A stretch of 24,000 bases of DNA from Candidatus Nanoarchaeia archaeon (GTDB lineage: Archaea > Nanobdellota > Nanobdellia > Tiddalikarchaeales > Tiddalikarchaeaceae): contig JAQTTT010000009.1 of NCBI GenBank assembly GCA_028710615.1, forward strand, positions 1-24,000, given 5' to 3'. Below the pieces are notes generated by a model. That model did no database searches, was not told where the DNA came from, and worked only from the letters and a program-made list of their open reading frames with translations. The position numbers and the translations under genes are program-made. This document shows, piece after piece, positions 2,068-13,384 of the stretch; position 1 is the stretch's first letter; each line of letters opens with the position of its first letter.

Positions 2068-2985
2068 ATGAATAAAATAGTTTTGGCATCAATGATGCTA
2101 TTATTAGTCTCAGCATCAGCGGTTTTTGCTGAGAATGAGACAACGAATGAAACAGAGTTATTCAATGACTCAATGCCTTTGAATGATTCCGAATTATTCG
2201 ACAATTCCACATTAATTAATGAAGATTTAATTAATGATTCAATCAGGGATTCTGAAATATTGTCAACCAACCCTGGAGTAATTTTAAGGTTCAGCCAATT
2301 ATATGGGCAGCTAAGCCTGAGGATTGAGCAAGCTGACTTGGTGATTGCTGAAATTAATGATTCAAGCATTGCTGAGCAATTAAGCTCAATAGTTGAAGCT
2401 TTGGAATCATTGAAAGCCGAAGCAGGCTATTACATGGATGAGGCAAAAGAATATGATTTAAGGCAAGCAGCGATTGACTTCGTTTACCTTAAAAAGAAAT
2501 CCATAGAATTAGTTTCAGAGTTCAGGGAAATCTCCCATGATTACTTTCAAGCAGGGCACATTAATGCTTTGAAAAATAAGCTAAGATTAGTGAATGAAAG
2601 CAACGGGGTAAGTGAAAAGATTTCAAGAATGATGAGCGCTCACAATGCTTTAAAAGTTAGGAATGTGGTGGGAAGCGTTGATAATGAAACAATTAATGGA
2701 ATAATGAACGGCTCAATCGCCAAAAACCAGATAAATAATGTAATTAGAAACATGTTTCAGAATTTGAATGAAAGCATAAGGAATGAGGTTATCATGCAGG
2801 TAAAAGAGAACTTGGTGAGAAATAATATCAATGCTTCAGCCAAGAATAATGAAGCTTTAGAGAATGCTGAGAATATTACTCAAAGAATAAGGCAAAACAT
2901 ACAAAACAGGATAGATGAGTATAAAGAAAGAAATCCTAATTCAAGCATTTCCAGCAGTGTAAGAAACAACGGAAGGGGAAGATAA
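2068..2985 (+). CDS. Secreted, N-glycosylation-sequon-rich, mostly helical protein (305 aa)
   Basis: Signal peptide MNKIVLASMMLLLVSASAVFA. I counted 14 N-x-S/T sequons by hand, six of them within aa 23-58 (NET, NET, NDS, NDS, NST, NDS). There is no C-terminal anchor. Confidence 0.6.
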   Translation: MNKIVLASMMLLLVSASAVFAENETTNETELFNDSMPLNDSELFDNSTLINEDLINDSIRDSEILSTNPGVILRFSQLYGQLSLRIEQADLVIAEINDSSIAEQLSSIVEALESLKAEAGYYMDEAKEYDLRQAAIDFVYLKKKSIELVSEFREISHDYFQAGHINALKNKLRLVNESNGVSEKISRMMSAHNALKVRNVVGSVDNETINGIMNGSIAKNQINNVIRNMFQNLNESIRNEVIMQVKENLVRNNINASAKNNEALENAENITQRIRQNIQNRIDEYKERNPNSSISSSVRNNGRGR

Positions 2986-2988
2986 GCA

Positions 2989-3165
2989 ATGAATTATTTG
3001 GCATTATCTTTAATCCTGCTGATAGTTTTAGTGAGCGGATGCGCAATTATTAATAATGGCTCAAGCAATTTAAGCGACGCATTAACTTCTGATGAAGTAT
3101 TAAGCGAATTGGATTCAGTTCTGGTTGATGAATCAGATGGTGTTGAAATAGGCTCAATAATATAA
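2989..3165 (+). CDS. 58-aa putative lipoprotein (lipobox LVSGC), below the ORF-track cutoff
   Basis: Manual translation gives MNYLALSLILLIVLVSGCAIINNGSSNLSDALTSDEVLSELDSVLVDESDGVEIGSII*. The ATG lies 4 nt after the stop of the preceding gene. The hydrophobic h-region ends in L-V-S-G-C, and the mature part is acidic. Confidence 0.45.
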   Translation: MNYLALSLILLIVLVSGCAIINNGSSNLSDALTSDEVLSELDSVLVDESDGVEIGSII

Positions 3166-3504: not shown

Positions 3505-3765
3505 ATGGTTAAGGTTATTAAAAAAAACAAATCAATGCAGCCTTATAAAGAATCAAAAGTTGTGAAATCTTGCTTTAAAGCAGGAACTCCTGAGCCAATC
3601 GCGAAAGCAATAGGCAAAATGGTTTCTTTGCAGCTTAAAGGGAAAAAAACTGTTAAATCTTCAGATATAAAGAAAAAAGTTTTAATAATTATGTCTAAGG
3701 TTGGAACAGCCTTAAAGAATTTTAAAAAAGGATTTAATAAAAAGAAAGCAGGAAAAAAAAAGTAA
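3505..3765 (+). CDS. Standalone ATP-cone domain protein with a Lys-rich tail
   Basis: VKVIKKNKSMQPYKESKVVKSCFKAG...IAKAIGKMV...KTVKSSDIKKKVLIIM fits the ATP-cone consensus (V-x-K-R-x-G-x-x-E-x-F-x-x-x-K...S-x-x-I-q-d-x-V). The C terminus is KKGFNKKKAGKKK. Confidence 0.5.
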   Translation: MVKVIKKNKSMQPYKESKVVKSCFKAGTPEPIAKAIGKMVSLQLKGKKTVKSSDIKKKVLIIMSKVGTALKNFKKGFNKKKAGKKK

Positions 3766-3836: not shown

Positions 3837-4559
3837 ATGAATTGGGGAAAAAAAGTCGCTGCTCCTTTGGTTGCAATTCCTGCAAAAGGAGAGCTTATTG
3901 AAAAAATAGTGATTGGAGTAAATGTCATTGATTTAAACCTCAATAGTTTATTTTTTGATGTTGCTTATTTTTCAACGCCTGGAACTGGGCAAAGCCTTGA
4001 AACATGCAATTATTGCAATGCAAATTATGTTTTAAGGACAAATGTAAGCAAAAAAGGGGGTGAGGTTGTTAAAACATATTCAATCAATTGCCCAAATTGC
4101 GGAGCATCAGACAATAATCTGTCTGAAAAAGCCAATGAGCAATTGAATGGCCAAACTTTGGATGACAAGCTTGTTTCAATGATTAGTTCAGGGAGAATCC
4201 AATGTTCTCCAATCGCAACGCCGCTTAGAAAAAATATTTTATTTGCTGAACATGAAATAACTGATTTTAGCATTTCCAGTGCGAGAAGCATTGATTCTGA
4301 TTTAAAAAAAATAACATATGTTTTGATTAAAGACAGCAAGGGCGAAACAGGCAAATATTCTGCAGAGTTTAAAGTTGAGGATGTTTTTAGCCTTAAACGC
4401 AAAGAAATCATTAATAAACAGGATATTGAAGAAATAATTAAATTGGATGTTAATGAACTTCAAGAGTTAAAGGAAAAAGCCAATAAAAAAATTAAAGCTG
4501 TGAAAGAAGCTGAAACAGAGAAAAAAATTCCTTCAGTTTTTAGCAAGCTTGATGTTTAA
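3837..4559 (+). CDS. Hypothetical zinc-ribbon protein with a C-terminal coiled coil (240 aa)
   Basis: CNYC-x24-CPNC zinc-ribbon spacing in the N-terminal third. The tail is charged and helical (NELQELKEKANKKIKAVKEAETEKK). I recognise no family. Confidence 0.55.
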   Translation: MNWGKKVAAPLVAIPAKGELIEKIVIGVNVIDLNLNSLFFDVAYFSTPGTGQSLETCNYCNANYVLRTNVSKKGGEVVKTYSINCPNCGASDNNLSEKANEQLNGQTLDDKLVSMISSGRIQCSPIATPLRKNILFAEHEITDFSISSARSIDSDLKKITYVLIKDSKGETGKYSAEFKVEDVFSLKRKEIINKQDIEEIIKLDVNELQELKEKANKKIKAVKEAETEKKIPSVFSKLDV

Positions 4560-4605
4560 TTTTTTTATGATTTATTGATTTTTATTTAAACAAACAAATT
4601 AACAA

Positions 4606-4617
4606 TTTTTTTAAAAC
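4606..4617 (+). promoter_or_regulatory. TATA box (TTTTTTTAAAAC) for the 4640 gene
   Basis: Centred about 29 nt upstream of ATG 4640. Confidence 0.5.
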
Positions 4618-4639
4618 ATTGACGCGATCATTATAACTA

Positions 4640-6523
4640 ATGAAAAAACAATTAATTCTCGCAGCATCATTATTTTTATTTTCAGGAGTTTTTGCTTTCA
4701 GCATTAGCCAAGCAAGCCAATACGATTTTGACACTTTTAATTGCAATACTTTGGAGGAGGAATTAATTCCTCATTGCGAAAGCACTAAGAGTTTTATAAG
4801 GAATTGCTACACTAATCCGAATAATTGCGATTGCAGTTATTTTTCAGAGCCTGAAGCTCAAGCAGAGTGCAACAAATGGGTTGATGAAGGAATAAGATTA
4901 ATGGCTCAAAAATCCCAAGAATGCGTGGCGGATTTATATTCCTGCTCATGCAAGGATTTGCCCCATCCAAGATTAGTTGCTGTATGCGAGAGTGAAAAAA
5001 ACAAGTTTATGGGAAAATTAAGGGCAATGGAGCAGTCATGCTTTAGCGACCCAGCAACATGCGATTGCTCAATCTTTGAATCAGCTCAATACATTGCCAA
5101 ATGCGAGGAAGAGATGGGAAAAGCATCTCAAATAGCTGCATCTTGCATGGAAGATATAGGAAACTGCGATTGCTCAAGCATAGCTAATCCTGTGGCAAGA
5201 GAAAAATGCGAGGAAAACAAAGCCTTTTATATTGATTATGAAAATGATTTCAGGGCTAATTGTGAGGAAAACTTTGATGAGTGCGACTGCTCAACCATTC
5301 CAAGCATAAGCGGACAGCAGGCATGCGAGGCGCAAAAATCGAAGGTGCTTGAAAGCGCCCAATCCCAAGTTTATGCAATGATTTATGAATGCTTTAAAGA
5401 CATAAATAATTGCGACTGCTCAAAACTTCAAGAGCAAGGATACATTGATTATTGCGAAGAAACCAAGAATTACGGCTTTGCTTGCATGCAAACAGGAGGC
5501 ATGGGGTGTGAGCAATTGGATAATATAGTATTATACCCTCCGAGTTTGCCGGAATTTTTAAGGCCTTATTTTGCGCAGACATTCAAGAGTTTTATTGATG
5601 CCGAGAAACTGAAAGGCATGGCTGCCTCAGCAGAGATTGCAAGAACATGCGTGATTGACCCGCATAATTGCGACTGCTCAACCATACCAACTTATGCTCG
5701 AGAGTTTTGCCTGGATAAAAAAGATATGCAAATAGATTGCATTGAAGGAAATATTACTGCCTGTGAAGCATTGGATAACACTATTAATGTTGTTCCTCTG
5801 ACTGCGCCAAAATTTGTCAGGGATTTCTTGGACCCAATATTAAGGCCTTTAATGCTTATGCAAAAAGAGCAAATCAAGGGAAGGTATGCTGAAATGGTCA
5901 AAGAGCAAATGCTTGCGTGCGTTGAAAATGAAAGCAATTGCGACTGCGATTCAGTGCCTTTGCAGTATCAAAGTTTTTGCAGCAACAAAATTTCATTAAT
6001 CAGGGAGTGCAATGCGTTCAATTATAGTTCATGCTTTAGGTTAATGGATGAGCCAAATATCCCGGATGATTTGCCTGGCTTTATCAGAATCTTTGTTGAA
6101 GGAAGTGTTAACCGGCAAGTTGAGCAAAGAATAAATGCTGAATTAGGAAAAAATGTTGACAGCATTAAAGAGCCAATAATTAACTGCATAATTAATGAAA
6201 CTAATTGCGACTGCTCATCAGTTCCTGAAAAATACCAACTCTTTTGCGAAAACAAGATATTGTCAGTAAACAAATGCATGAATCAAGATTATGATGAGTG
6301 CTTTAAATTAATGGAAGAATCCCCTTTGCCTGAAGATTTGCCTGACAGGCTTAAAAATTTAATAAACGCCCCCGTGGAAAGGGAGTTTAACAACAGGATG
6401 AATGAAGCATTTTTAAAAATAAGGCCAAGTGTGTGCAATAACATGAATTTGGCGCAATGCATGAATTATTTTAACAATAATTGCCAAGGGTTAAGTCCCA
6501 ACGCTTGCTTGAAAAGGAATTAA
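4640..6523 (+). CDS. Secreted cysteine-rich modular repeat protein (627 aa, 50 Cys, NCDCS modules)
   Basis: Signal peptide MKKQLILAASLFLFSGVFAFSISQA, followed by nine periodic C-x6-C-x-C-x10/11-C modules. The last four modules are extended by C-x9-C-x7-C. Confidence 0.8.
   Translation: MKKQLILAASLFLFSGVFAFSISQASQYDFDTFNCNTLEEELIPHCESTKSFIRNCYTNPNNCDCSYFSEPEAQAECNKWVDEGIRLMAQKSQECVADLYSCSCKDLPHPRLVAVCESEKNKFMGKLRAMEQSCFSDPATCDCSIFESAQYIAKCEEEMGKASQIAASCMEDIGNCDCSSIANPVAREKCEENKAFYIDYENDFRANCEENFDECDCSTIPSISGQQACEAQKSKVLESAQSQVYAMIYECFKDINNCDCSKLQEQGYIDYCEETKNYGFACMQTGGMGCEQLDNIVLYPPSLPEFLRPYFAQTFKSFIDAEKLKGMAASAEIARTCVIDPHNCDCSTIPTYAREFCLDKKDMQIDCIEGNITACEALDNTINVVPLTAPKFVRDFLDPILRPLMLMQKEQIKGRYAEMVKEQMLACVENESNCDCDSVPLQYQSFCSNKISLIRECNAFNYSSCFRLMDEPNIPDDLPGFIRIFVEGSVNRQVEQRINAELGKNVDSIKEPIINCIINETNCDCSSVPEKYQLFCENKILSVNKCMNQDYDECFKLMEESPLPEDLPDRLKNLINAPVEREFNNRMNEAFLKIRPSVCNNMNLAQCMNYFNNNCQGLSPNACLKRN
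4805..6301 (+). repeat. Intragenic array of nine Cys modules (five short of about 38 aa, four long of about 88 aa)
   Basis: The DNA motif AATTGCGA(C/T)TGCTCA and variants recur near 4825, 5060, 5165, 5283, 5410, 5666, 5936 and 6205. The hand-indexed Cys positions are strictly periodic. Confidence 0.8.
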
Positions 6524-7016: not shown

Positions 7017-7295
7017 TTAAAATTCCTCTTCATCTGATTCAATATCTTCTTCAACGCGTTCTTTCTTTGCTTTTGGCGCAGTTGATCCAGGATTTTCTTT
7101 TCTTTTCATGTAGCAATCTCTGCAGTAAACAGGCAACCCTTCTTTTGGTTTGAAAGGCACTTCAGCCTCTTTTCCGCATTCAGAGCACGTTGTTTTATAC
7201 ATTTGTCTTGGTCCGCCAAAATCTCTTCTTTGGCCCCCTCCGCCAAAGCGGTTTCCTCCTGAGAAATTCCTTTTATCTCTTCCTTGATAAGGCAT
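7017..7295 (-). CDS. CxxC-x17-CxxC zinc-ribbon protein with an RGG-rich N terminus and an acidic C terminus
   Basis: C-S-E-C, then exactly 17 residues (GKEAEVPFKPKEGLPVY), then C-R-D-C, which matches the CxxC-x17-CxxC domain family pattern. The N terminus is GGNRFGGGGQRRDFGGPR. The C terminus is EEDIESDEEEF. Confidence 0.7.
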   Translation of the reverse strand: MPYQGRDKRNFSGGNRFGGGGQRRDFGGPRQMYKTTCSECGKEAEVPFKPKEGLPVYCRDCYMKRKENPGSTAPKAKKERVEEDIESDEEEF

Positions 7296-11760: not shown

Positions 11761-12177
11761 ATGAATTTTAAGATTACTATTATGAGTGATGATGAAATAA
11801 AGCCTGAAATTGAAGAGGATTTAAATGAGGAAGAAGAGGCTAAAATGGCTTTCGCGAACGCTGAAATAGTCAGGTTAATCAAGAATAATTTGCCTGAAGG
11901 CAGAATGATAAAGAAAAGAGTGAAAGTTGCAATGAACAAATTCTTGGAAGAAATTGCTACAGAAGTGTGCCAAAAATTAGCCAAAGAGCCCTACACATAC
12001 ATTGAGATTGACATGCTTGAAAGGGCAATGGAGCCATACAAGAACATTAAAAGCTTGGAAGTGGAAAAAAATAGAATCATAGCCAATCTAAACAAGATTA
12101 AGGCTGAATGCGATGTAATGATTGACGACATTAACAGGAAATTCTCAATGTTTGAGAGCGAAAAAGACGAATATTAA
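11761..12177 (+). CDS. Histone-fold-like protein with an acidic N-terminal tail and a C-terminal coiled-coil extension
   Basis: AEIVRLIKNNLPEGRMIKKRVKVAMNKFLEEIATEVCQKLAKEPYTYIEIDMLERAM aligns by eye with the archaeal histone pattern (A-P-I-x-R-I-I-K...R-V-S-x-x-A...L-E-E...A...A-x-H-A-G-R-K-T-I-x-x-x-D-I-x-L-A). The alternative start ATG 11782 also has a TATA at suitable distance. Confidence 0.45.
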   Translation: MNFKITIMSDDEIKPEIEEDLNEEEEAKMAFANAEIVRLIKNNLPEGRMIKKRVKVAMNKFLEEIATEVCQKLAKEPYTYIEIDMLERAMEPYKNIKSLEVEKNRIIANLNKIKAECDVMIDDINRKFSMFESEKDEY

Positions 12178-12232: not shown

Positions 12233-13384
12233 ATGGAGTGCTCAATCGTGCTTGTTCCAGGATTAATTCCTGAAAAAAATTTTAAAGATTTTAAAACTAA
12301 TGCCCTTGAATTGGGCTCAAAATTCGCCAATGTGTGCTATAGCGAGAAAAATTTTAAAGAAATAAATGGCGAAAGGGAGGAATTAACCCTTAATCGCATA
12401 AAAAGGACTTTAAGCGCAGGGCATCACAGCGTTTATGAGCACACTTATTTTGCCCTTGAAATTTCAGGGATTCCAAAATCTTTGGCAATGATTCTTAACA
12501 ATCAAAGCTCTTATGCCACGAGCGAGAAATCCGCAAGATACACAAAAATGAATGATGTTTCGCAAAAAGAAAAGCAATTATACAACAAATGGGCTGATGA
12601 ATTTAAAAGATTAATAAAATCAGAATACGGCAACAAAATCAATGATTCTGGAATTGAAAAGCTCAGCCAAGAAAATGCGAGGTATTTAACCAGTGTTCAC
12701 ACTCCCACAAAATTGATTCACACAATAAGCTTCAGGCATTTGAATTATTTAATAAGCATGCTTGAAGAATTCATGAATGAAGCAAACAATAATGAATACA
12801 ATAAAGCCCTTAAAAAATCAGTGAAAGAATTTGTTTCAATGGAGTGCATTAAATCCCTGAAAGCTGAGGGATTGAATTGCAAAAGCAAGGGAATGAAGCT
12901 GAATTGGCATTCATTGTTTGATTATGAAGAATATTTTGGAGCAACTTATTGCGCTAATTATTCATTGAGCTTTGCAGCGCTGGCTCAAGCGCAAAAGCAC
13001 AGGGGAATAAATTATCAAGTCAAAGATTTTGAAGAAATAACTGATTTTTTTGTTCCAAGAATTCTGCCCAAAGACTTAAGTAATGAGTGGCTGAGTGATT
13101 TAGAAAGCATTGCCGGCATTTGGCCTCAGGCAGGATTATTGAATGTTAGCGAAAGAGGAACGCTTGAACGCTTTGCAATGAAGGCAATTGAAAGGTTGTG
13201 CGGTTCAGCCCAATGGGAAATAATGAACAATGTCAAAGAAGTGAAAAATAAGTATTTGGCTAATTCTGCCAATGAAAAAATAAGGCAATATTTGGAAAGC
13301 AATGCAGTGAAAAAATGCGAAAAAAACCTATGCACTGCTCCCTGCAATTTCGGGCCAAAGCTTGCTCTTGAAAGAAGAATATAG
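12233..13384 (+). CDS. ThyX-family (flavin-dependent thymidylate synthase-like) protein, atypically long and motif-divergent
   Basis: GHHSVYEH...S-A-R-Y (aa 63-103), ENARYL...SFRHLNYLISML, then a second KHR (aa 255-257) and ..CGSAQWEI (aa 323-330). These resemble the ThyX blocks GHxxxxEH, RHR-x7-S-x-R-Y, ExARxxLP and AQxEI. The canonical RHR position in the first half reads NNQ. Confidence 0.55.
   Translation: MECSIVLVPGLIPEKNFKDFKTNALELGSKFANVCYSEKNFKEINGEREELTLNRIKRTLSAGHHSVYEHTYFALEISGIPKSLAMILNNQSSYATSEKSARYTKMNDVSQKEKQLYNKWADEFKRLIKSEYGNKINDSGIEKLSQENARYLTSVHTPTKLIHTISFRHLNYLISMLEEFMNEANNNEYNKALKKSVKEFVSMECIKSLKAEGLNCKSKGMKLNWHSLFDYEEYFGATYCANYSLSFAALAQAQKHRGINYQVKDFEEITDFFVPRILPKDLSNEWLSDLESIAGIWPQAGLLNVSERGTLERFAMKAIERLCGSAQWEIMNNVKEVKNKYLANSANEKIRQYLESNAVKKCEKNLCTAPCNFGPKLALERRI

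What the first reader, a model, noticed from the sequence alone, without database searches (positions are those of the whole stretch)
4640..6523. Secreted 627-aa protein built from nine copies of an unrecognised C-x6-C-x-C-x10/11-C (NCDCS) module, 50 cysteines
The ORF opens with a classical signal peptide (MKKQLILAASLFLFSGVFAFSISQA). A strictly periodic cysteine pattern follows, which I indexed by hand. Five 4-Cys modules have a period of 35-43 aa: C56/63/65/77, C94/102/104/116, C134/141/143/155, C169/176/178/190 and C208/215/217/229. Four 6-Cys modules have a period of 86-90 aa: C251/258/260/272/282/290, C337/344/346/357/367/375, C427/434/436/447/457/465 and C516/523/525/536/546/554. Each long module is followed by a P-x-x-L-P-x-F/L-x-R-like linker. 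A 4-Cys tail (C599/607/615/622) closes the protein. The core reads N-C-D-C-S-x3-P-x5-6-C-E and shows up in the DNA as recurring AATTGCGA(C/T)TGCTCA. There are 50 Cys in total, an even number, and no conserved His partners. Disulfide-knotted extracellular repeats are therefore more likely than metal sites. I cannot assign the module to any named domain. A large disulfide-rich surface protein in a small AT-rich archaeal genome is a candidate adhesin or host-contact factor.
Basis: partly seen in the sequence, partly recalled or inferred. Interest (0 to 1): 0.72.

Follow-up and report, generated by a model that had tools for sequence, protein, structure and literature searches.

The report
Secreted cysteine-stapled helical repeat protein
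This gene from a tiny DPANN archaeon encodes an exported, very acidic protein built from nine copies of a previously undescribed all-helical module that is probably locked by disulfide bonds. The family is small, occurs only in DPANN archaea and a few CPR bacteria, and its function is still untested.

Summary
ORF 4640-6523 (+) encodes 627 aa with a signal-peptide-like N-terminus, 50 Cys and nine C-x6-C-x-C-x10/11-C cores (9 observed, 0.16 expected in shuffles).

No described family matches it:
- Pfam, NCBIfam, PHROGs, PADLOC and PDB sequence searches all give nothing.
- An AlphaFold model of one long module (pLDDT 92.5) has no Foldseek match in PDB.

The protein is all-alpha. Each Cys cluster sits at a turn between long helices.

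The family is tiny: 47 representatives among 1.84 billion proteins. Members come from Nanoarchaeia, Woesearchaeota, Micrarchaeota and one Patescibacteria lineage. Distant members fuse a single long module to DUF5667 and to 2-Cys "PPEC" repeats.

Disulfides are favoured over Cys4 metal sites. After removal of the signal peptide, 45 of 46 family proteins have an even number of Cys, and about half have a count that is not a multiple of 4.

The gene is under purifying selection, has no conserved neighbour, and carries one lineage-specific extra long module.

Best reading: a Sec-exported, disulfide-stapled, non-enzymatic extracellular scaffold. A role as an adhesin is possible but unsupported. It is a new domain family of a familiar kind and of moderate interest.

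The parts
4640..4714 (+). Signal-peptide-like N-terminus, residues 1-25 (MKKQLILAASLFLFSGVFAFSISQA). It has a KK n-region, a hydrophobic core and S-Q-A at -3/-1.
   Evidence: Read from the sequence. Almost all full-length family members have an equivalent N-terminal hydrophobic segment. No SignalP run was possible.
4715..4786 (+). N-terminal 2-Cys unit (C35, C46; C-x10-C).
   Evidence: In alignment A1 both Cys are present together or absent together.
4787..5371 (+). Five short 4-Cys modules S1-S5, residues 50-244. Each has C-x6-C-x-C-x11-C, with periods of 39, 39, 35, 39 and 43 aa.
   Evidence: All 20 Cys except C104 are invariant in alignment A1. The full-length AlphaFold model places one long helix per module, with the CxC in the inter-helix loop.
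5372..5629 (+). Long 6-Cys module L1, residues 245-330, followed by the YPPSLPEFLRPYF linker.
5630..5899 (+). Long 6-Cys module L2, residues 331-420. Residues 331-407 are the part modelled alone.
   Evidence: AlphaFold on the 79-module alignment A2 gives pLDDT 92.5 and pTM 0.78. Helices span residues 2-9, 21-38, 42-50 and 61-76 of the modelled fragment.
5900..6166 (+). Long 6-Cys module L3, residues 421-509. It is the orthologue of the last long module in relatives.
   Evidence: It is 65% identical to the corresponding module of P0002.
6128..6394 (+). Lineage-specific 89-aa insertion, residues 497-585. It creates the fourth long module L4 (Cys 516-554) and arose by tandem duplication of L3.
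   Evidence: It is absent from all 11 close relatives in alignment A1. L4 is 40-43% identical to L3 and 47% identical to the P0002 module. DNA repeat D3 has a spacing of 267 nt, which equals 89 codons.
6416..6520 (+). C-terminal tail, residues 593-627, with two C-x7-C pairs (C599/C607 and C615/C623). It resembles the 'PPEC...EEC' 2-Cys repeats of distant relatives.
   Evidence: P0007-P0012 retain only the first pair. Profile hits in DUF5667-type relatives extend across this tail, for example P0032 profile positions 416-522.
4560..4639 (+). AT-rich upstream region with a TATA-like run (tttttttaaaac) about 23-30 nt before the ATG. This could be an archaeal promoter for a leaderless or short-leader mRNA.
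   Evidence: Read from the sequence. This is inference only; the sigma-70 scan is not relevant to archaea.

Best explanation
The gene encodes a Sec-exported, strongly acidic, non-enzymatic extracellular protein (pI about 4.5).

Proposed fold. After signal-peptide cleavage it folds into a chain of alpha-helical modules. In each module the C-terminal end of one long helix, a short C-x-C loop and the N-terminal end of the next helix are tied together by two disulfides. These use the four core Cys. Long modules add a helix-turn-helix closed by a third disulfide (C5-C6, C-x7-C) and a proline-rich extended linker.

Proposed role. The result is a rigid, denaturation- and protease-resistant scaffold or spacer outside the cell. 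It either stays in or on the envelope non-covalently or is released.

Evolution. Module number changes by tandem duplication, and this genome has one extra long module. The module defines an undescribed domain family confined to DPANN archaea, with one branch in CPR/Patescibacteria.

What is shown and what is inferred:
- Shown: the repeat anatomy, homology between the module types, the all-alpha prediction, the absence from domain and structure libraries, the family distribution, and purifying selection.
- Inferred: export, disulfide formation and its connectivity, and the scaffold role.
For: Anatomy:
- Nine core motifs are present against 0.16 expected by chance.
- Short and long modules are homologous (hhalign probability 98.2%, E 4.9e-14).
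- Of 210 module instances found in the family, 184 carry all four core Cys. All but one of the other 26 are alignment-truncated instances.

Structure:
- The full-length AlphaFold model is all-helical, with Cys clusters at the inter-helix loops (pLDDT 72).
- The single-module model has pLDDT 92.5 and pTM 0.78.

No enzyme or known domain:
- Pfam, NCBIfam, PHROGs and PADLOC give 0 hits.
- PDB sequence and profile searches give nothing.
- Foldseek gives nothing.

Export: an N-terminal hydrophobic, signal-like segment is present in nearly all full-length members.

Disulfides:
- 45 of 46 mature family proteins have an even Cys count, and about half of them have a count with n mod 4 = 2.
- Stand-alone 2-Cys units are gained and lost as pairs. 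Examples are C5/C6, C35/C46, the tail pairs and the PPEC repeats.
- His makes up only 0.5% of residues.
- CPR bacteria, which host one branch of the family, commonly encode an MdbA-like thiol-disulfide oxidoreductase, often next to VKOR (PMC6744442).

Real gene: synonymous sites are saturated (pS 0.66-0.90) while pN is 0.15-0.41 between orthologues.

Scaffold role:
- Distant relatives place one module between other extracellular parts. These are DUF5667, PPEC repeats, acidic tails, and in P0023 a weak CBM35-like domain.
- No conserved operon partner exists.
Against: - No experiment and no SignalP run supports export.
- Many DPANN and CPR habitats are anoxic, and no oxidative-folding enzyme was found in the 24-kb window.
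- There is no membrane anchor, lipobox or known cell-wall or S-layer binding motif, so the protein's location is unknown.
- The full-length pTM is only 0.38, so the arrangement of modules relative to each other (rod or beads) is not established.
- 'Scaffold' is a default reading for a domain with no catalytic or binding signature.
Confidence: 0.55

Rival explanations
1. Adhesin or host-contact factor. The helical Cys-rich array would be the binding surface, or the stalk of a binding surface, by which the episymbiotic archaeon attaches to its host. This is a more specific version of the best explanation rather than an exclusive alternative.
For: - The protein appears exported and belongs to a lineage (Nanoarchaeia/DPANN) whose known members live attached to hosts (general knowledge).
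- The family is restricted to DPANN and one CPR lineage, both episymbiont-rich groups.
- Module number varies between lineages, and the extra module L4 has diverged quickly. It is 47% identical to the P0002 module against 65% for L3.
- Distant relative P0023 ends in a weak CBM35-like domain (E 0.0037, below cutoff). P0018 has a similar-looking beta-rich C-terminal domain without a CBM hit.
Against: - The window protein has no anchor and no recognised binding domain.
- It has no conserved neighbours such as pili, secretion systems or sortase/archaeosortase.
- Orthologues are under clear purifying selection rather than the diversifying pattern common in host-contact proteins.
- The CBM35 hit is sub-threshold and lies in another protein.
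Confidence: 0.25
2. Metal-binding modules. The four core Cys of each module would form a Cys4 site for Zn, Fe or an Fe-S cluster that staples the helix-helix turn. This would make the protein an extracellular metal-stabilised or metal-sequestering array.
For: - The four strictly conserved Cys per core, with a CxC element, resemble structural metal sites.
- Many source habitats are anoxic, where disulfides are hard to keep oxidised (inference).
- The four core Cys are never lost in pairs, so connectivity cannot be read from natural variants.
Against: - The family also uses isolated Cys pairs that cannot form a Cys4 site on their own. These are C5/C6, the tail pairs and the PPEC repeats.
- Mature Cys counts are even in 45 of 46 proteins but are not a multiple of 4 in about half of them.
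- There is no CxxC knuckle and almost no His.
- No zinc-finger, metallothionein or Fe-S Pfam model scores even at E<=10.
- Exported proteins rarely carry Cys4 zinc sites (general knowledge).
Confidence: 0.12
3. A secreted effector or toxin, for example a membrane-active or inhibitor-like helical disulfide protein of the saposin, nsLTP or albumin kind, that acts on the host or on competitors.
For: - Small all-alpha domains with 3 disulfides are typical of lipid-binding and membrane-active proteins (general knowledge).
- The protein is exported and has no anchor.
Against: - Foldseek finds no PDB match for the high-confidence module model.
- The Cys spacing differs from the saposin and nsLTP patterns.
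- The protein is strongly acidic, with net charge about -40.
- There is no neighbouring immunity-like or secretion gene.
- There is no PADLOC hit.
Confidence: 0.05

Closest known systems
DUF5667-containing secreted proteins of Woesearchaeota and Nanoarchaeota (for example MBI2144117.1 = P0045 and MEW5896795.1 = P0035)
   Same: They are true homologues over one long 6-Cys module plus the following 2-Cys repeats (profile E 1e-14 to 1e-4). They share the signal peptide, the acidic composition and an even Cys count.
   Different: They carry an N-terminal Pfam DUF5667 domain, only one long module, no short modules, many 'PPEC...EEC' repeats and long acidic tails. The window protein has no DUF5667. 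These proteins are themselves uncharacterised, and no paper in the library mentions DUF5667.
Helicobacter cysteine-rich proteins (Hcp), built from Sel1-like repeats
   Same: They work in a similar way: secreted proteins built from helical-hairpin repeats of about 36 aa, each stapled by a disulfide (from my own knowledge).
   Different: No Sel1/SLR Pfam match appears even at E<=10. Here each module has two disulfide-equivalents with a C-x-C element and a different consensus. Foldseek finds no similarity.
Serum albumin family, plant nsLTP/2S-albumin '8-Cys motif' proteins and saposin-like proteins
   Same: All are alpha-helical extracellular domains whose helices are cross-linked by closely spaced Cys. 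Albumin uses CC, nsLTP uses CxC, and saposins have 6 Cys in about 80 aa (from my own knowledge).
   Different: The Cys spacing differs. There is no Pfam hit. There is no significant Foldseek hit; equine albumin appears only at E 6.3 in the full-length search, and nothing appears for the module model.
De novo designed disulfide-stapled helical miniproteins (for example PDB 8utk)
   Same: This was the best, though non-significant, PDB profile hit (E 0.38). It aligns the C4-x9-C5-x7-C6 helix-turn-helix part of the module.
   Different: The hit is not significant, the protein is artificial, and the similarity reflects convergent use of Cys staples in short helices.

Membership tests
Any Pfam-A or NCBIfam cysteine-rich domain or repeat (EGF, furin-like, Sel1, antistasin, zinc fingers, metallothionein, Fer4 and others) | A profile-HMM match at or near the curated cutoff | tested here: not met
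   No family matches at E<=10 in Pfam-A or in NCBIfam for the whole protein. Close and distant relatives also show no hit over the module.
Pfam DUF5667 (PF18915) proteins | Presence of the DUF5667 helical domain of about 100 aa | tested here: not met
   The window protein has no hit. An HMM built from the N-terminal regions of 21 relatives finds no significant match in any window ORF (best E 0.049 against a search set of only the window's ORFs). Distant homologues do carry DUF5667, with E values from 1e-10 to 4e-16.
Saposin-like (SAPLIP), nsLTP and albumin helical disulfide folds | Fold similarity to solved members and the family-specific Cys spacing | tested here: not met
Sec-type secreted proteins | A tripartite signal peptide: basic n-region, hydrophobic h-region, and small residues at -3/-1 | tested here: met
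   The N-terminus is MKK + LILAASLFLFSGVFAF + SISQA|S. The feature is conserved in nearly all full-length family members. This is a heuristic judgement only; no SignalP run and no experiment.
Disulfide-bonded extracellular proteins | Cys used in pairs, giving an even count in the mature chain, with pairs gained and lost together | tested here: met
   45 of 46 mature family proteins have an even count. 2-Cys units are present or absent as pairs. The chemistry itself cannot be tested here.
Structural Cys4 metal sites | Cys in sets of four, usually with CxxC knuckles, and metal occupancy | tested here: inconclusive
   The core has four invariant Cys. However, the total count is not a multiple of 4 in about half of the members, and isolated pairs exist. 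Metal occupancy cannot be tested with these tools.
Anchored archaeal surface proteins (PGF-CTERM/archaeosortase substrates, lipoproteins, proteins with a C-terminal transmembrane segment) | A C-terminal hydrophobic anchor or sorting signal, or a lipobox Cys | tested here: not met
   The maximum 12-residue hydropathy in the last 40 residues is 0.32. The signal peptide contains no Cys.

The most novel reading that the evidence does not exclude
The module is a genuinely new disulfide-locked helical fold that serves as a shared envelope or attachment building block of ultra-small episymbionts. It would have originated in DPANN archaea and been transferred to CPR/Patescibacteria. Copy number and divergence, such as the fast-evolving extra module here, would tune host contact.
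Probability: 0.15. Interest if true: 0.7.

Novelty: new variant of a known kind. Interest (0 to 1): 0.45.

Why it matters
DPANN archaea and CPR bacteria depend on cell-surface contact with hosts, yet most of their exported proteins are unannotated. This finding offers four things:
- A clean, confidently modelled new domain (pLDDT 92.5) with no match in the sequence or structure libraries searched.
- A rare, well-delimited family of about 47 clusters among 1.84 billion proteins.
- Indirect evidence for extensive extracellular disulfide bonding in these organisms.
- A protein family shared across the archaea-bacteria divide between two episymbiont radiations.

It is a tractable target for recombinant expression and disulfide mapping. 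Its function is still unknown, and a new cysteine-rich repeat in metagenomic dark matter is not in itself surprising.

Tried and rejected
- The word-indexed protein search with the whole-protein alignment returned the same 12 proteins. With the module alignment it returned nothing.
- A conserved operon partner was looked for and rejected. The upstream ORF 3837-4559 is unrelated to the upstream genes of P0002 and P0007. Neighbourhoods differ between lineages apart from short-range synteny among close relatives, which share OB-Ssb, zf_Tbcl_2 and CysRS.
- A link to ECF sigma/anti-sigma signalling was considered, because the Patescibacteria homologue P0010 sits directly upstream of an ECF sigma gene. 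It was rejected as a family feature because it occurs in that lineage only, and the two small downstream ORFs have no Pfam hit.
- A split DUF5667 partner in the window was looked for and not found.
- A viral or defence origin was excluded: viral contigs 0, PHROGs 0, PADLOC 0.
- N-glycosylation sequons are not enriched, with 4 observed against 4.8 expected. Only N371-I-T is conserved in the archaeal clade.
- I tried to infer disulfide connectivity from natural pair-loss variants. No such variants exist: 184 of 210 module instances have all four core Cys, and the rest are truncated alignments except one.
- Literature searches for DUF5667 and for DPANN cysteine-rich or disulfide-bonded secreted proteins found nothing specific.
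Full report
**1. The observation**

The ORF at 4640..6523 (+) exists, starts with ATG and encodes 627 aa. It has 50 Cys (8.0%) and only 3 His.

The spacing between consecutive Cys repeats with the pattern 7, 2, 12 (or 11). This gives nine C-x6-C-x-C-x10/11-C cores, five of them 35-43 aa apart and four 86-90 aa apart. The four long units add C-x9-C-x7-C. The chain begins with a C-x10-C pair (C35/C46) and ends with two C-x7-C pairs.

C35 and C46 were counted in the total but not assigned to a unit.

In 5000 shuffles of the same composition the core regex occurs 0.16 times on average and never more than 3 times, against 9 observed.

At the DNA level AAYTGYGAYTGY occurs six times in frame. A 35-nt repeat family has seven copies in register with the motif. 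No other ORF in the window carries the motif.

**2. The genome**

The window encodes split RpoB and split RpoA subunits, ribosomal proteins S12 and S7, CysRS, ThyX and a protein with a weak, sub-threshold histone-fold hit. GC content is about 0.34. An identical protein is deposited as a hypothetical protein of a Candidatus Nanoarchaeia MAG (PHG04_01530).

**3. It is a real gene**

Orthologues at 41-73% identity exist on independent contigs. Between them synonymous sites are saturated (pS 0.66-0.90), while pN is only 0.15-0.41. This indicates purifying selection on the protein.

The region upstream is AT-rich and has a TATA-like run about 23-30 nt before the ATG. That fits an archaeal promoter and a short or absent leader, but this is inference only.

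**4. Known domains**

- Pfam-A and NCBIfam give no hit even at E<=10.
- PHROGs and PADLOC give none.
- phmmer against all PDB sequences gives none.
- A profile of 79 long modules against PDB gives nothing better than E 0.38.

**5. Structure**

AlphaFold on the 12-sequence family alignment gives an all-helical model (pLDDT 72, pTM 0.38). Helices of 20-40 residues are separated by loops of about 12 residues. The first Cys of a core lies at the end of one helix, the C-x-C lies in the loop, and the fourth Cys lies at the start of the next helix.

I then extracted 98 long modules from the family and aligned 79 of them (A2). Only the six Cys are invariant in A2.

AlphaFold on this alignment, with window residues 331-407 as target, gives pLDDT 92.5 and pTM 0.78. 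The model has four helices and an extended P-x-x-x-P-x-F segment.

Foldseek results:
- The module model against PDB gives no match at E<=10.
- The module model against BFVD gives nothing better than E 2.2.
- The full-length model against PDB gives only non-significant helical-repeat hits, the best at E 0.5.

**6. Module relationships**

Short and long modules are homologous over the 4-Cys core (hhalign probability 98.2%, E 4.9e-14). The long module is the short core plus a disulfide-type helix-turn-helix and a Pro-rich linker.

An HMM of the core finds 210 instances in the 60 family proteins. Of these, 184 have all four Cys, and all but one of the other 26 are alignment-truncated instances.

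The fourth long module is an 89-aa insertion (residues 497-585, window 6128-6394). It is absent from all 11 close relatives. It is 40-43% identical to L3 and 47% identical to the single corresponding module of P0002, whereas L3 is 65% identical to that module. It is thus a lineage-specific tandem duplication whose new copy diverged quickly but kept all six Cys.

**7. The family**

An exhaustive HMMER scan of 1.84 billion cluster representatives finds only 47 proteins at E<=1e-3, 14 of them at E<=1e-30.

Scans of the sequence collections gave:
- GTDB species genomes: 5 loci.
- JGI metagenomes: 12 loci, including one from Hainich groundwater.
- Viral contigs: none.

Named members come from Nanoarchaeia, Nanoarchaeota, Woesearchaeota and Micrarchaeota.

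One clade (P0009-P0012, P0014, P0015; about 30-33% identical) includes a protein on a 102-kb Parcubacteria/Patescibacteria contig. Its neighbours there are RecJ, RNase H, an ECF sigma-70 factor and a MacB-type ABC system, so this is a genuinely bacterial context. P0015 lies among bacterial-type genes (peptidase S41, RluA-like, DUF5671).

The family is therefore shared between DPANN archaea and CPR bacteria. The broader superfamily looks archaeal, which suggests archaea-to-CPR transfer, but I did not test this with a phylogeny.

**8. Distant relatives**

About 28 proteins of 450-950 aa share one architecture:
- a signal peptide;
- Pfam DUF5667;
- one long module, with a nearly fixed C-[VI]-x-D-P-R-[EQ]-C-D-C-S-x-I-P-V;
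- many 2-Cys 'PPEC...EEC' repeats;
- an acidic low-complexity tail;
- often a C-terminal 'TGxI[IV]K'-like motif.

The window protein's tail (R-P-S-V-C-x7-C-x7-C-x-G-L-S-x3-C) looks like the first two of those 2-Cys repeats.

Two members, P0018 and P0023, end in a beta-rich domain. In P0023 it has a weak, sub-threshold CBM35 hit (E 0.0037). DUF5667 itself is uncharacterised, and no paper in the library mentions it.

**9. Disulfides or metal**

Evidence favouring disulfides:
- After removal of the signal segment, 45 of 46 family proteins of at least 300 aa have an even Cys count. The count is not a multiple of four in about half of them. These proteins are related, so this is not a formal probability.
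- The family uses stand-alone Cys pairs (C5/C6, C35/C46, the tail pairs and the PPEC repeats). They appear and disappear as pairs.
- His is nearly absent, and there is no CxxC knuckle.
- CPR bacteria commonly encode an MdbA-like oxidoreductase, often next to VKOR (PMC6744442).

This favours disulfides: two per short module, three per long module and 25 in total.

Caveats:
- The connectivity within the 4-Cys core is unknown.
- A Cys4 metal staple at the core cannot be excluded.
- No oxidative-folding enzyme is visible in the window.
- Many source habitats are anoxic.

**10. Function**

- No conserved neighbour exists.
- There is no anchor. The C-terminal hydropathy maximum is 0.32, and the signal peptide has no lipobox Cys.
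- There is no catalytic signature.
- The mature protein has pI 4.5 and net charge about -40.
- Glycosylation sequons are not enriched.

The best-supported reading is a Sec-exported, disulfide-stapled, non-enzymatic helical scaffold of the envelope or milieu, whose module number evolves by duplication. An adhesin or host-contact role is compatible with this but rests only on the organism's lifestyle and one weak CBM-like hint in a distant relative.

**11. Verdict**

Novelty: this is an undescribed domain family, hence a new variant of the familiar kind 'secreted cysteine-stapled repeat protein'. Interest is moderate. The confident module fold with no library match and the DPANN-CPR distribution are the notable points. 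The lack of any functional handle is the limit.

Noticed in passing
L004 6001-8094 (P0010 locus; the same contig as L013 and L019): The Patescibacteria homologue lies immediately upstream of an ECF sigma-70 factor gene. Two small ORFs without Pfam hits follow, then an RND-adaptor and MacB ABC system. The family thus crosses the archaea-bacteria boundary, and in this one lineage it may be under ECF control.
   Followed up: partly
P0032-P0056 (distant relatives; no window coordinates): Many DUF5667-type relatives end in a conserved C-terminal motif after a long acidic tail, for example 'ITGQIIKALKWVGGK', 'VTGTIIKAIINPF...' and 'ITGEIVRWFWRK'. It could be an undescribed sorting or anchoring signal of DPANN surface proteins.
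   Followed up: no
window 2068-2985 (+): This is a second exported-looking protein (305 aa, signal peptide MNKIVLASMMLLLVSASAVFA). Its N-terminal part is packed with N-x-S/T sequons (NETTNETELFNDSMPLNDSELFDNST...). It has no Pfam hit and is not DUF5667-like.
   Followed up: partly
window 2989-3165 (+): A 58-aa ORF has a lipoprotein-like N-terminus (LIVLVSGC). It has no Pfam hit.
   Followed up: no
window 12233-13384 (+): The ThyX homologue is 383 aa long, but only residues 23-195 match the Thy1 profile. The roughly 190-aa C-terminal extension is unassigned.
   Followed up: no
window 7017-7295 (-): A 92-aa protein has an RGG-rich N-terminus and a treble-clef zinc finger (zf_Tbcl_2, E 6e-19). 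It stays syntenic with OB-Ssb and CysRS in related Nanoarchaeia contigs (L001, L009).
   Followed up: partly
window 11761-12177 (+): A 138-aa protein has only a weak histone-fold hit (CBFD_NFYB_HMF, E 7.7e-4, below cutoff). It is about twice the length of a typical archaeal histone.
   Followed up: no
P0018 residues about 545-690 and P0023 residues about 335-486: Two family members carry a C-terminal beta-rich domain. P0023 has a weak CBM_35 match (E 0.0037, 18 bits against a cutoff of 28). It may be a carbohydrate-binding head on the Cys-rich helical stalk.
   Followed up: partly
window 3505-3765 (+): An 86-aa lysine-rich ORF has a weak ATP-cone match (E 4e-4, below cutoff). It stands alone, with no adjacent ribonucleotide reductase or NrdR domain.
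   Followed up: no
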